A stretch of 64,000 bases of DNA from Escherichia coli. Lineage in GTDB: Bacteria > Pseudomonadota > Gammaproteobacteria > Enterobacterales > Enterobacteriaceae. The position numbers were made by a program. Shown in pieces: positions 1 through 3,000 of the stretch (position 1 is its first letter; each line of letters opens with the position of its first letter). The stretch lies in NCBI RefSeq assembly GCF_003334355.1, contig NZ_QOWP01000024.1; one strand, 5' to 3'.

Positions 1-3000
1 CCGTGGCAAAATATTCCGTGAAGTAAAAAAAGCAATGCCGCCATCGGCGGCATTCACACGCTTAGTTCATGCCGAGACGAATCAGGTCCAGTGGTGCCAG
101 TTTCTCTTCACAACCTTCAACAACTACGGTTTTTCCGCGGCGGATTTGCTCAGCGGTCAGACCTTCAGTATCAATCGACAGGATCTTGCCAGTGTGACCG
201 GTGCCGCTAACCATAACACGGCTGCCAGTGGTGATTGCGTTACGGTTACGATCGTAGGTCGTCATAGGTGTTTTCTCCTTTCTGATTTACAGTCGAAGCC
301 CACGTAACGGGCGCAATATAAATACTCCTGTCGAGTGAAATATTTTTTGTTTTTGATCAAGCTCACATCTTTTTTGATGCATGCATGAGCCATAAGGCGG
401 GGGAAAAGACTCTCACCCCGAATGGGATGAGAGGAAATGAATTACTCTTCGCTAAACCAGTCGCTATTTTCCTGGCGGATCTGGCGCACAGATTCGCTGA
501 TTTCCTGCAAATGTTGCGTCATTGCACGTTCTACCGCATCGCCATCACGTTTTTGCAGGGCAGAGAAAATATCAAGATGCTGGCGTAATAGCATTTCTGG
601 TGGAGAGACGTGGTCGAAACTCATATAGCGCACGCGATCAACGGTCGCTTTCAGGTTCTCAATGGTATCCCACGCCAGTTGACAGTCGGCAATCTGCGTC
701 AGGAGTTGATGGAAGTTGTCATCAAGTTCAAAAAAATCATCCAGTTGCTTGCGCTCAATGGCAATGCGTTGCTGGTGAAGATTTTGTTCCAGTTGGTAGC
801 ACTGGCTTTCGGTAATCATGCTCGCCGCCCGACGCGCCACCGCGCACTCAATGGCCTGACGGATAAAACTGCCGTTGCGCACCTGGGCCATGGAAATTTT
901 GTTGACGTAGCTGCCACGCTGCGGACGAATTTGAATCAGGCCGTTTTCCGCCAGTTTAATAAAGGCTTCACGAACCGGCTGGCGTGACACATTGAAACGA
1001 ACAGAAACTTCTTTTTCCGACAACGGTGTGCCTGGGGCAATCAGGCAATGGACAATGTCGCGACGAAGGATACGATAAATCTGCTGATTGACAGGCTGTG
1101 TGGGATTAAGTTGCGTTTCGACGGTCATTCGTTCTTGCTTGTGAGTGAGTTAACTGCATGAGTCTACCACTTTTTTGTGACAAGCAATAACCCGGCAGTT
1201 ACGCCGGGTATAAAAATTACTGACGGTGGACATTCAGTCCGGCATAGCTTTGGGTAACCGGCATCATTTCCAGGGTATTGATATTGACGTGAGCAGGCAG
1301 CGTTGACACCCACCAGACGGCTTCGCTGACATCTTCTGGCGTTAATGCAACGGTATTTTGATAGGTTTTTTCCGCTTTACCGTCATCGCCTTTAAAGCGG
1401 ACATTGGAAAACTCGGTGCCACCCACCAGACCCGGTTCGATGTCGGTGACGCGCACCGCCGTACCATGCAGATCCGTACGCAGATTCAGACTAAACTGAC
1501 GAACAAACGCTTTCGTCGCACCGTAAACGTTACCACCGGCATACGGCCAGCTACCTGCCGTTGAGCCAATGTTAATAATATGACCATGATTACGTTCAAC
1601 CATACCCGGTAAGACGGCGCGCGTCATATATACCAGGCCTTTGTTGTTGGTATCAATCATCGTTTCCCAGTCTTCAATGCTGGCTTTATGCGCAGGTTCC
1701 ATGCCCAACGCCAGGCCGGCATTATTTACCAGGATATCAATATTGCACCACTCGGCAGGAAGCGATGCCAGCATCTCTTCAATAGCGGCGCGGTTGCGAA
1801 CGTCCAGTTGGGCGATATACAGATTATCTCCCAGTTCGTCTTTTAACTCCTGCAACCGTTCCTGGCGACGGCCAGTGGCGATAACTTTATGCCCTTGTTG
1901 AATAAAACGACGAGTAATGCATTCACCAAAACCTGCCGTTGCTCCAGTTACTAAAACGATCATCTCACTGTTCCTCAACGCTTTTGTGTGTCAATAACAT
2001 AGCACGGGATGCTTAAGAGCGGGTAATACTGGTTTGCAAGATTGCACTCCGTTATCAGTAAGCCTACGCTATGGAACACCTCGCGTTCAGGAGAAGAAAA
2101 TGACAACAATTAATCCTTTCCTTGTGCAAAGCACACTGCCGTATCTGGCTCCTCATTTTGATCAAATTGCCAATCATCACTATCGCCCGGCATTCGATGA
2201 GGGAATGCAGCAAAAGCGGGCAGAAATTGCTGCCATCGCGCTTAACCCGCAAACGCCTGATTTCAACAATACTATTCTGGCACTGGAACAAAGCGGAGAA
2301 TTACTTACCCGCGTTACCAGCGTCTTTTTTGCGATGACTGCGGCGCATACCAATGATGAATTACAGCGTCTTGATGAACAGTTTTCCGCTGAACTGGCGG
2401 AACTGGCTAATGATATCTATCTGAACGGTGAATTATTCGCGCGGGTAGATGCTGTCTGGCAGCGCCGTGAATCCCTGGGGCTTGATAGTGAATCCATCCG
2501 CCTGGTGGAGGTGATTCATCAACGTTTTGTCCTTGCCGGAGCCAAACTTGCGCAAGCTGATAAAGCAAAATTAAAAGTACTGAATACAGAAGCTGCGACA
2601 CTGACCAGTCAGTTTAACCAGCGATTACTGGCAACAAATAAATCCAGCGGTCTGGTTGTGAACGATATCGCGCAGCTGGCAGGAATGAGTGAGCAAGAGA
2701 TTGCGCTGGCGGCAGAGGCGGCTCGCGAGAAAGGTCTGGATAACAAATGGCTGATTCCGCTGCTGAATACCACCCAACAACCGGCGCTTGCCGAGATGCG
2801 CGATCGTGCGACGCGTGAAAAACTGTTTATTGCGGGCTGGACGCGAGCGGAAAAAAATGATGCCAATGATACCCGCGCTATCATTCAACGTCTGGTAGAG
2901 ATTCGCGCACAGCAGGCGAAACTGCTTGGTTTTCCTCATTATGCCGCATGGAAAATCGCCGATCAGATGGCAAAAACACCTGAAGCAGCACTTAACTTTA

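What the first reader, a model, noticed from the sequence alone, without database searches (positions are those of the whole stretch)
347..360. Near-consensus FNR site upstream of ydfZ
TTGTT-N4-ATCAA lies about 85 bp upstream of the ydfZ start. If ydfZ is FNR-activated as I recall, this is the likely activator site.
Basis: partly seen in the sequence, partly recalled or inferred. Interest (0 to 1): 0.2.

Follow-up and report, generated by a model that had tools for sequence, protein, structure and literature searches.

The report
Known FNR activator site of ydfZ

Summary
The sequence is there. Window 347-360 (+) reads TTGTTTTTGATCAA. ydfZ (62-265) is on the minus strand, where the site reads TTGAT-CAAA-AACAA, a 9/10 match to the FNR consensus centred 88.5 bp upstream of the ATG. 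By motif count alone it is not beyond chance (5 one-mismatch hits in 64 kb against 4.1 expected), and the other four hits all lie inside coding sequence. Context settles the question. A published genome-wide map puts the ydfZ transcription start at window 312, which centres the site at exactly -41.5, the class II activator position. Published ChIP-chip and ChIP-seq show FNR bound here. ydfZ is about 89-fold anaerobically induced and FNR-dependent, and PydfZ-lacZ is a standard FNR reporter. My own tests agree. A PWM built from 61 other ChIP-bound sites scores it 13.9 bits. An FNR box with the same spacing to a -10 element recurs upstream of ydfZ in Escherichia, Citrobacter, Franconibacter, Buttiauxella, Shimwellia and an unclassified enterobacterium. 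The promoter core is invariant in more than 99% of E. coli genomes. A competing register 6 bp upstream, given in a 2006 paper, is not conserved as an FNR site; it reads as a CRP-like box at -47.5, and that is the only loose end. Verdict: confirmed, supported, already known, low interest.

The parts
347..360 (-). FNR binding site (register A). Sense strand TTGAT-CAAA-AACAA, positions -48..-35, centre -41.5.
   Evidence: Sequence. 9/10 to consensus. 13.94 bits on a PWM built from 61 other ChIP-bound sites. Myers 2013 Table S6 and Table 1. Conserved across genera.
352..367 (-). Overlapping second register. As an FNR 14-mer it is GTGAG-CTTG-ATCAA (w353-366, centre -47.5). As a CRP-type 16-mer it is TGTGA-GCTTGA-TCAAA (9/10).
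   Evidence: Grainger 2006 table. Myers Table S6 second motif, PatSer 13.18. CRP-consensus scan. The FNR PWM falls from 13.3 to 5.2 bits in other Escherichia species.
370..375 (-). A6 tract at -63..-58, upstream of the activator site. Possibly an alpha-CTD contact region (inference).
   Evidence: Sequence. At least five of the six A are invariant in Escherichia and Citrobacter (alignment A2). The function is inferred, not tested.
319..324 (-). -10 hexamer TATTTA (-12..-7). It is weak (3/6), and there is no recognisable -35.
   Evidence: Position follows from the mapped start. The block GTATTTATATT is invariant in alignment A2. The generic sigma-70 scan finds no promoter here, as expected for an activator-dependent promoter.
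312..312 (-). ydfZ transcription start (+1, G).
   Evidence: Kim et al. 2012 Table S1: TSS 1,627,192 (U00096.2), 41 reads, 47-nt UTR, with a 51-nt upstream sequence identical to the window. Coordinates converted through and checked.
266..311 (-). Remainder of the 47-nt 5' UTR, with Shine-Dalgarno AGGAG at w275-279 and a small 5'-terminal hairpin (GCCCG...UGGGC) starting at the +1 base (w312).
   Evidence: The fold is not significant (z = -0.79), so the hairpin is descriptive only.
62..265 (-). ydfZ coding sequence (67 aa).
   Evidence: ORF. RefSeq annotation 'putative selenium delivery protein YdfZ' and b1541 in MG1655.
410..433 (-). Terminator-like hairpin after rspR (ydfH), at about -98..-121, which bounds the ydfZ promoter upstream.
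   Evidence: Terminator scan. rspR ORF at 442..1128.
34..54 (-). Terminator-like hairpin plus T-run just after the ydfZ stop codon; ydfZ looks monocistronic.
   Evidence: Terminator scan. The convergent ydfI lies beyond it.

Best explanation
Window 347-360 is the operator of a class II FNR-dependent promoter for ydfZ. When oxygen is absent, the [4Fe-4S] FNR dimer binds TTGAT-CAAA-AACAA centred at -41.5. There it takes the place of the missing -35 element and recruits and activates sigma-70 RNA polymerase at a weak -10 (TATTTA). Transcription then starts at window 312 and yields a monocistronic ydfZ mRNA with a 47-nt leader. Shown, by published data or by tests here: the sequence, the mapped start, in vivo FNR occupancy, anaerobic and FNR-dependent expression, anaerobic sigma-70 recruitment, and conservation of the box and its spacing. 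Inferred from established knowledge of CRP/FNR-family class II activation: the protein contacts (FNR activating regions with sigma region 4 and the alpha subunits) and a role for the upstream A-tract as an alpha-CTD site.
For: Sequence and geometry: the site is 9/10 to consensus. The TSS is at w312 (Kim 2012 Table S1), so the centre is -41.5. There is no -35 and the -10 is weak. In vivo binding: FNR ChIP-chip (Grainger 2006) and ChIP-seq/ChIP-chip peaks in all datasets (Myers 2013 Table 1 and Table S5). In vitro: the ydfZ promoter fragment serves as the FNR EMSA positive control (PMC5481319). Expression: activated in all three WT versus delta-fnr datasets (Table S8); aerobic/anaerobic ratio 0.011 (Table S12); sigma-70 ChIP signal 63 versus 3597 between the aerobic and anaerobic cultures (Table S2; the peak is labelled 'Anaerobic' and Table 1 marks sigma-70 occupancy as higher without O2). 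PydfZ-lacZ is used as a class II FNR reporter. My tests: the PWM from 61 other bound sites gives 13.94 bits, above 36% of the training sites. An FNR box lies 77.5-102.5 bp upstream of the ATG in five lineages whose upstream regions are otherwise divergent and, in three of them, in a different gene context, scoring 11.9-17.9 bits, while only 2.9% of shuffled upstream regions have a site of at least 8/10 in that interval. A -10-like hexamer starts 21-22 bp after the box in each lineage, and the spacer between box and -10 diverges in sequence without any indel. The 68-bp core is 100% identical in 5297 of 5323 matching E. coli records.
Against: The motif alone is not statistically unusual in the window. 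A better PWM match inside marB is not bound in vivo, so sequence alone proves nothing. A second register 6 bp upstream scores almost the same in E. coli (13.3 against 13.9 bits; PatSer 13.18 against 13.58), and neither ChIP nor EMSA can separate two sites 6 bp apart. I found no point-mutation analysis of the box in the papers I could read, and Kang 2005 and Mettert 2008 are not held. The TSS rests on one genome-wide dataset; two other datasets I searched gave no record.
Confidence: 0.95

Rival explanations
1. The functional FNR site is the other register, GTGAG-CTTG-ATCAA (window 353-366, centre 359.5), as tabulated by Grainger et al. 2006, and the reader's 14-mer is only its overlapping shadow.
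For: Grainger 2006 lists the 24-mer AAGATGTGAGCTTGATCAAAAACA centred at 1,627,144.5, which is window 359.5. Its PWM score in E. coli is nearly equal, 13.3 against 13.9 bits, and PatSer gives 13.18 against 13.58. ChIP cannot resolve a 6-bp difference.
Against: With the mapped start it would sit at -47.5, about half a helical turn off every position from which FNR is known to activate (-41.5, -61.5 and so on; Myers 2013 introduction, plus established spacing studies). As an FNR site it decays to 5.2 bits in E. albertii, E. whittamii and two other Escherichia lineages, while register A stays at 11.9 bits. In LSJC7, Buttiauxella and Shimwellia only register A has a counterpart among the top PWM hits; F. 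helveticus, but not F. pulveris, also has a 10.9-bit match 6 bp upstream.
Confidence: 0.03
2. The region is primarily, or additionally, a cAMP-CRP target. CRP binds TGTGA-GCTTGA-TCAAA (window 352-367) and either drives ydfZ or competes with FNR, so carbon status is integrated with the oxygen signal.
For: There is a 9/10 match to the CRP consensus, kept at 9/10 in all Escherichia species and in Citrobacter. TGTGA(G/A)C is invariant in alignment A2. ydfZ is among the novel CRP genomic-SELEX targets of Shimada 2011. Franconibacter and Shimwellia have a 9-10/10 CRP-type box 29 bp upstream of their FNR box, at -70.5.
Against: -47.5 is not a known activating position. The ~89-fold anaerobic induction and the FNR ChIP/expression data come from cultures in the medium Myers call GMM; I take this to be glucose minimal medium, in which cAMP-CRP activity is expected to be low (general knowledge). 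So CRP is not needed for induction. The SELEX list also holds many other FNR targets (nrdD, yfiD, ompW, uspF, ydcX), which suggests in vitro cross-recognition. I found no in vivo CRP data for ydfZ.
Confidence: 0.15
3. The motif is a chance match in an AT-rich intergenic region, and FNR dependence of ydfZ is indirect.
For: The number of one-mismatch matches in the window equals the chance expectation. Strong PWM matches such as the one in marB are unbound in vivo.
Against: FNR occupies the promoter directly in ChIP-chip and ChIP-seq and shifts it in EMSA. The -41.5 geometry is exact. The box and its spacing are conserved across genera far beyond the 2.9% shuffle expectation. The core is almost invariant across E. 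coli.
Confidence: 0.01

Closest known systems
Class II FNR-activated promoters of E. coli (dmsA, narG, nirB, nrfA, narK, ynjE; the synthetic FF-41.5)
   Same: A single FNR dimer site is centred at -41.5 and overlaps the -35 region. There is no usable -35 hexamer. Induction is anaerobic and FNR-dependent with sigma-70 recruitment. Myers 2013 Table 1 lists ydfZ in the same table row group (-41.5) as these promoters, and PMC6343905 labels it 'Activated; Class II promoter'.
   Different: Nothing essential. The promoter-proximal half-site is AACAA rather than ATCAA. A second FNR/CRP-like register overlaps 6 bp upstream. According to the mBio 2026 paper, the promoter keeps some FNR-dependent activity in air, which is why it is favoured as a sensitive reporter.
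Class II CRP-dependent promoters (galP1; the CC(-41.5) type)
   Same: The regulator family is the same (CRP/FNR) and the -41.5 architecture and activation logic are the same. This rests on established knowledge and was not tested here.
   Different: Half-site specificity differs: TTGAT for FNR against TGTGA for CRP. At ydfZ the -41.5 register is FNR-type, and the CRP-type register lies at the non-activating position -47.5.
Co-dependent FNR plus CRP promoters (for example E. coli ansB, with FNR at -41.5 and CRP further upstream; recalled from memory, not checked here)
   Same: The ydfZ promoters of Franconibacter and Shimwellia combine an FNR box at the inferred -41.5 with a near-perfect CRP-type box 29 bp upstream.
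   Different: No transcription start or expression data exist for those species. In E. coli itself the CRP-type box overlaps the FNR box instead of lying in tandem.

Membership tests
FNR binding site | 14-bp inverted repeat matching TTGAT-N4-ATCAA, with the G and C of the half-sites present | tested here: met
   TTGAT-CAAA-AACAA is 9/10, with G-46 and C-37 present. It scores 13.94 bits on a PWM built from 61 other ChIP-bound sites, within the range of the training set (11.1-20.2).
FNR binding site | Occupied by FNR in vivo or in vitro | not testable with these tools
   The published record is positive: ChIP-chip (Grainger 2006), ChIP-seq and ChIP-chip (Myers 2013 Table 1 and Table S5), and use as an EMSA positive control (PMC5481319). 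Resolution is not enough to separate the two registers.
Class II FNR-activated promoter | Site centred near -41.5 relative to an experimentally mapped transcription start | tested here: met
   The Kim 2012 TSS at 1,627,192 (v2) is window 312. The site spans -48..-35, so its centre is -41.5.
Class II FNR-activated promoter | Activator-dependent core promoter: poor or absent -35 and a weak -10 | tested here: met
   The -35 region is AAAAAT-like and the -10 is TATTTA (3/6). The generic sigma-70 consensus scan reports no promoter here.
Class II FNR-activated promoter | Transcript level depends on FNR and anaerobiosis | not testable with these tools
   Published: activated in three WT versus delta-fnr datasets (Table S8), aerobic/anaerobic ratio 0.011 (Table S12), sigma-70 occupancy significantly higher anaerobically (Table S2 values 63 and 3597; '+' in Table 1). 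PydfZ-lacZ is used as an FNR activity proxy.
Class II FNR-activated promoter | Loss of activation when the box is mutated | not tested
   No mutational analysis was found in the papers held. Kang 2005 and Mettert 2008 could not be read.
Functional regulatory site (general) | Conserved in orthologous promoters with preserved spacing to the core promoter | tested here: met
   The box is present at 11.9-17.9 bits in Escherichia, Citrobacter, Franconibacter, LSJC7, Buttiauxella and Shimwellia, with a -10-like hexamer 21-22 bp downstream. Only 2.9% of shuffled upstream regions have a site of at least 8/10. It is absent from one paralogue clade (L012, L013).
CRP binding site (register B) | Match to TGTGA-N6-TCACA at a known activating (-41.5, -61.5, -72.5...) or repressing position, with in vivo CRP dependence | tested here: inconclusive
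   The sequence match is 9/10 and is conserved within Escherichia and Citrobacter, and in vitro SELEX lists ydfZ. But its position is -47.5, and no in vivo CRP data were found.

The most novel reading that the evidence does not exclude
The invariant TGTGA immediately upstream of the FNR box may not be incidental. It would create a cAMP-CRP site at -47.5 that is mutually exclusive with FNR at -41.5, so that in Escherichia and Citrobacter carbon starvation antagonises or tunes anaerobic induction of ydfZ. In Franconibacter and Shimwellia the same two regulators would instead act in tandem (CRP at -70.5 plus FNR at -41.5). That would be an evolutionary rewiring of a two-input promoter from co-activation to competition.
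Probability: 0.12. Interest if true: 0.35.

Novelty: already known. Interest (0 to 1): 0.07.

Why it matters
It matters little as a discovery. The ydfZ promoter is one of the best-used natural reporters of FNR activity, and its FNR site, position and regulation are in the literature and in the databases derived from it. The value of this check is mainly as calibration. It shows that a tool-less reader correctly recognised a real regulatory site. It also shows that the motif alone would not have been enough, since a better match inside marB is unbound in vivo. The cross-genus comparison adds two modest points: it resolves which of two published overlapping registers is the conserved FNR site, and it flags a conserved CRP-type box whose role is untested.

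Tried and rejected
(1) Motif statistics in the window: not significant on their own, so I did not use them as support. (2) The generic sigma-70 promoter scan found nothing at ydfZ. That is expected for an activator-dependent promoter and is not evidence against it. (3) The primary papers Kang et al. 2005 and Mettert et al. 2008 are not held, so I could not check for in vitro transcription or mutational data. (4) Independent TSS replicates: nothing found in the Cappable-seq supplements, and the Mendoza-Vargas 2009 supplements list only a ydfZ RACE primer. The stored files may be truncated, so this says nothing either way. (5) The FabR/Salmonella 'ddg/ydfZ' ChIP target appears to be a misprint for yfdZ and is irrelevant. 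(6) The Rfam scan found no RNA family in the ydfZ leader, and the leader fold is not better than shuffles (z = -0.79), so I rejected a riboswitch or structured-leader reading. (7) A broad literature search for other ydfZ regulators returned nothing useful. (8) I looked for a CRP-type box at -70.5 in E. coli, by analogy with Franconibacter. The sequence there (GCTCATGCATGCATCA) matches only 4/10 by eye, so I rejected it.

Full report
WHAT IS IN THE SEQUENCE. The window is an E. coli chromosomal segment in reverse orientation relative to MG1655 (genome v3 position = 1,629,480 minus window position). The first genes are ydfZ (62..265, minus strand, 67 aa), rspR/ydfH (442..1128, minus), ydfG (1217..1978, minus) and dcp (about 2100..4145, plus). 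Window 347-360 on the + strand is TTGTTTTTGATCAA. Because ydfZ is on the minus strand, the site reads TTGAT-CAAA-AACAA in the direction of transcription, a 9/10 match to the FNR consensus TTGAT-N4-ATCAA. Its centre (353.5) is 88.5 bp upstream of the ATG.

IS IT MORE THAN CHANCE? As a motif, no. The window holds 5 matches with at most one mismatch against 4.14 +/- 2.0 in dinucleotide-preserving shuffles. I built a symmetric PWM from the 61 ChIP-bound sites in Table S6 of Myers et al. 2013, leaving out both ydfZ entries. The site scores 13.94 bits, above 36% of the training sites. Two window positions reach that score against 0.44 +/- 0.8 in shuffles. The best PWM hit in the window (17.2 bits, w15586) lies inside marB, and the same table lists it as not bound in vivo. 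Sequence alone therefore cannot carry the claim. The other four near-consensus 14-mers all lie inside coding sequence or a pseudogene: marB, yneO, ydeP and an ORF of a PTS island. Only the ydfZ site is intergenic.

GEOMETRY. Kim et al. 2012 (PMC3415461, Table S1) report a ydfZ start at 1,627,192 on the + strand (U00096.2), with 41 reads and a 47-nt 5' UTR. They print the 51 nt ending at +1 as GCTTGATCAAAAACAAAAAATATTTCACTCGACAGGAGTATTTATATTGCG, which is identical to the window. I converted coordinates using the MG1655 annotation and the v2/v3 offset of 1,976 derived from Grainger's site coordinate. The start is window 312, and the tool's reverse-complement output confirms this. The 14-mer then spans -48..-35 with its centre at exactly -41.5. 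The -10 is TATTTA at -12..-7 (3/6), and the -35 region is an A-run with no resemblance to TTGACA. Consistent with that, a generic sigma-70 scan finds no promoter here. This is the anatomy of an activator-dependent class II promoter. A terminator-like hairpin after rspR (w410-433) bounds the promoter upstream, and another (w34-54) follows ydfZ.

PUBLISHED EXPERIMENTAL EVIDENCE. Grainger et al. 2006 (PMC1802558) found ydfZ among 63 FNR ChIP-chip targets. Myers et al. 2013 (PMC3688515) place ydfZ in Category 1, operons directly activated by FNR. They report a ChIP-seq peak at 1,627,208, two predicted motifs with the top one at -41.5, and higher sigma-70 occupancy and higher expression without oxygen (Table 1). 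Their supplements add several numbers. The peak is positive in all FNR ChIP datasets (Table S5). ydfZ is activated in all three WT versus delta-fnr datasets (Table S8). The aerobic/anaerobic expression ratio is 0.011, about 89-fold induction (Table S12). The two sigma-70 ChIP values are 63 and 3,597 (Table S2). The ydfZ promoter fragment is used as the positive control for FNR EMSA (PMC5481319). PydfZ-lacZ is a standard class II FNR reporter (PMC6343905; PMC13343975; strain PK8257 in Myers 2013).

TWO OVERLAPPING REGISTERS. TTGATCAA is itself palindromic, so two FNR-like 14-mers overlap. Register B is GTGAG-CTTG-ATCAA, 6 bp upstream (w353-366). Myers's 'two motifs' are exactly these, with PatSer scores 13.58 and 13.18. 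Grainger's table centres its 24-mer on register B. My PWM gives 13.9 and 13.3 bits in E. coli, so the E. coli sequence alone cannot choose. Two things do. First, with the mapped start register B would be at -47.5, half a helical turn from any position from which FNR is known to activate. Second, conservation favours register A (next paragraph).

CONSERVATION. I scanned one genome per species for YdfZ relatives and obtained 17 loci. Four of the five other Escherichia loci (E. albertii, E. whittamii, Escherichia sp. E1V33 and the 'E. coli' SCPM genome) have TTGATCATAAACAA; the fifth (Escherichia sp. MOD1-EC7003) keeps the E. coli sequence TTGATCAAAAACAA. The single change in the four falls in the N4 spacer of register A (11.9 bits). 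Together with a G-to-A change upstream, it reduces register B to 5.2 bits. Citrobacter amalonaticus keeps the E. coli box. An FNR box also lies at a similar distance from the ATG in four further groups, three of which (LSJC7, Buttiauxella, Shimwellia) are in a different gene context:
- Franconibacter: TTGATCGAGATTAA, 13.4 bits, at -79.5.
- Enterobacteriaceae bacterium LSJC7: GTGATCGCGATCAA, 12.0 bits, at -78.5.
- Buttiauxella: TTGA(C/T)TTNGCTCAA, 13.2-17.9 bits, at about -85.
- Shimwellia: TTGATCTGGGTTAA, 12.9 bits, at -77.5.
Only 2.9% of shuffled upstream regions carry a site of at least 8/10 in that interval, and 0.25% a site of at least 9/10. In every lineage a -10-like hexamer starts 21-22 bp after the box: TATTTA in Escherichia, Citrobacter and Buttiauxella, then TAAAAT, TAGAAT and CACAAT in the others. 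This reproduces the -41.5 geometry. In the Escherichia/Citrobacter alignment the box and the -10/+1 block are invariant, while the 22-bp spacer diverges in sequence without any indel. The distant genera show the same islands. Within E. coli, the 68-bp core (w305-372) is 100% identical in 5,297 of 5,323 matching records, whereas about half of the records differ by 1-5% over the surrounding 1.2 kb. The one exception is a paralogue clade (Kluyvera L012, Buttiauxella gaviniae L013) that lacks the box.

MECHANISM. The best-supported account has four steps. Anaerobically, holo-FNR dimer binds the box at -41.5. It substitutes for the absent -35 element. It activates sigma-70 RNA polymerase at a weak -10. 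Transcription then starts at w312. Binding, dependence on FNR and anaerobiosis, sigma-70 recruitment and geometry are shown by published data or by the tests here. The specific protein contacts, and any role of the conserved A6 tract at -63..-58 as an alpha-CTD site, are inferred from general knowledge of class II CRP/FNR activation.

THE LOOSE END. Read as a 16-mer, register B is TGTGA-GCTTGA-TCAAA, a 9/10 match to the CRP consensus. It stays at 9/10 in all Escherichia and Citrobacter loci, and TGTGA(G/A)C is invariant there. Shimada et al. 2011 list ydfZ among novel cAMP-CRP genomic-SELEX targets, but that in vitro list also contains many other FNR targets. In Franconibacter (10/10 and 9/10) and Shimwellia (9/10) a CRP-type box lies exactly 29 bp upstream of the FNR centre, which is an inferred -70.5. 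LSJC7 keeps only the TCACA half at the same spacing. Whether CRP modulates ydfZ is untested. The strong induction in Myers's GMM medium (which I take to be glucose minimal medium) shows that CRP is not required.

COMPARISON AND VERDICT. The element is a member of the class II FNR-activated promoter family, alongside dmsA, narG, nirB, nrfA and narK. Every defining feature I could test is met, and the remaining ones are met in the literature, apart from point mutagenesis of the box, which I could not find. Interest is low. The most novel reading still open is CRP-FNR competition or co-activation at this promoter; I give it about 12% probability and modest interest.

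Noticed in passing
window 352-367 (minus strand); L008/L009 about 1385-1400; L017 about 1387-1402: A CRP-type box TGTGA-N6-TCA(A/T)A (9/10) overlaps the FNR site at -47.5 and is conserved in Escherichia and Citrobacter. 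Franconibacter and Shimwellia instead carry a 9-10/10 CRP-type box exactly 29 bp upstream of their FNR box (inferred -70.5). The function is untested.
   Followed up: partly
window 9234-15517: A 6.3-kb insertion relative to MG1655 lies between eamA and marB. It encodes a carbohydrate porin, a 6-phospho-beta-glucosidase, PTS IIA/IIB/IIC components and a GntR regulator. At least 80% of the queried stretch (w9100-15650, the insertion plus about 130 bp of flank each side) is present in 2,495 of 5,426 complete E. coli genomes.
   Followed up: partly
window 15586-15599: GTGATTTAAATCAA inside marB is the best FNR PWM match in the window (17.2 bits), yet Myers 2013 Table S6 lists it as not at a ChIP-seq peak, with Fis enrichment instead. 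It is a clear example of a strong motif that is unbound in vivo.
   Followed up: partly
window 6533-6746 (+): Rfam STnc560 hit (282 bits). It coincides with the mgtS/mgtT/mgrR locus of MG1655, so it is the known sRNA MgrR.
   Followed up: partly
L010 (NZ_VLXZ01000251.1, 265 bp): A 265-bp contig at 0.79x coverage in an 'Alkalicoccobacillus porphyridii' assembly is identical to the E. coli ydfZ promoter and 5' coding region. It is almost certainly E. coli contamination of that assembly.
   Followed up: no
L012 about 1330-1350 and L013 about 1330-1350: A ydfZ paralogue (58% identity) in Kluyvera sichuanensis and Buttiauxella gaviniae lacks the FNR box. A perfect LexA-type box (CTGTATAAATAAACAG in L012) lies about 165 bp upstream, next to an apparently divergent gene. 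B. gaviniae also has a second copy (L015) that does have the FNR box.
   Followed up: no
literature (Myers 2013 main text versus Table S6; Grainger 2006 Table): The Myers main text prints the ydfZ site as TTGATaaaaAACAA, whereas the genome and their Table S6 have TTGATCAAAAACAA. Grainger 2006 centres the ydfZ site 6 bp upstream, on register B. 'ydfZ' in the Salmonella FabR paper (PMC4804515) appears to be a misprint for yfdZ.
   Followed up: yes
window 298-312 (minus strand): The ydfZ mRNA begins with a 5-bp hairpin (GCCCG-UUACG-UGGGC) starting at +1, and Citrobacter keeps the GCCCGTTACGTGGG motif and has a 15-nt insertion within it (alignment A2). The fold of the whole leader is not better than shuffles (z = -0.79). 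A possible role in 5'-end stabilisation is speculation.
   Followed up: partly
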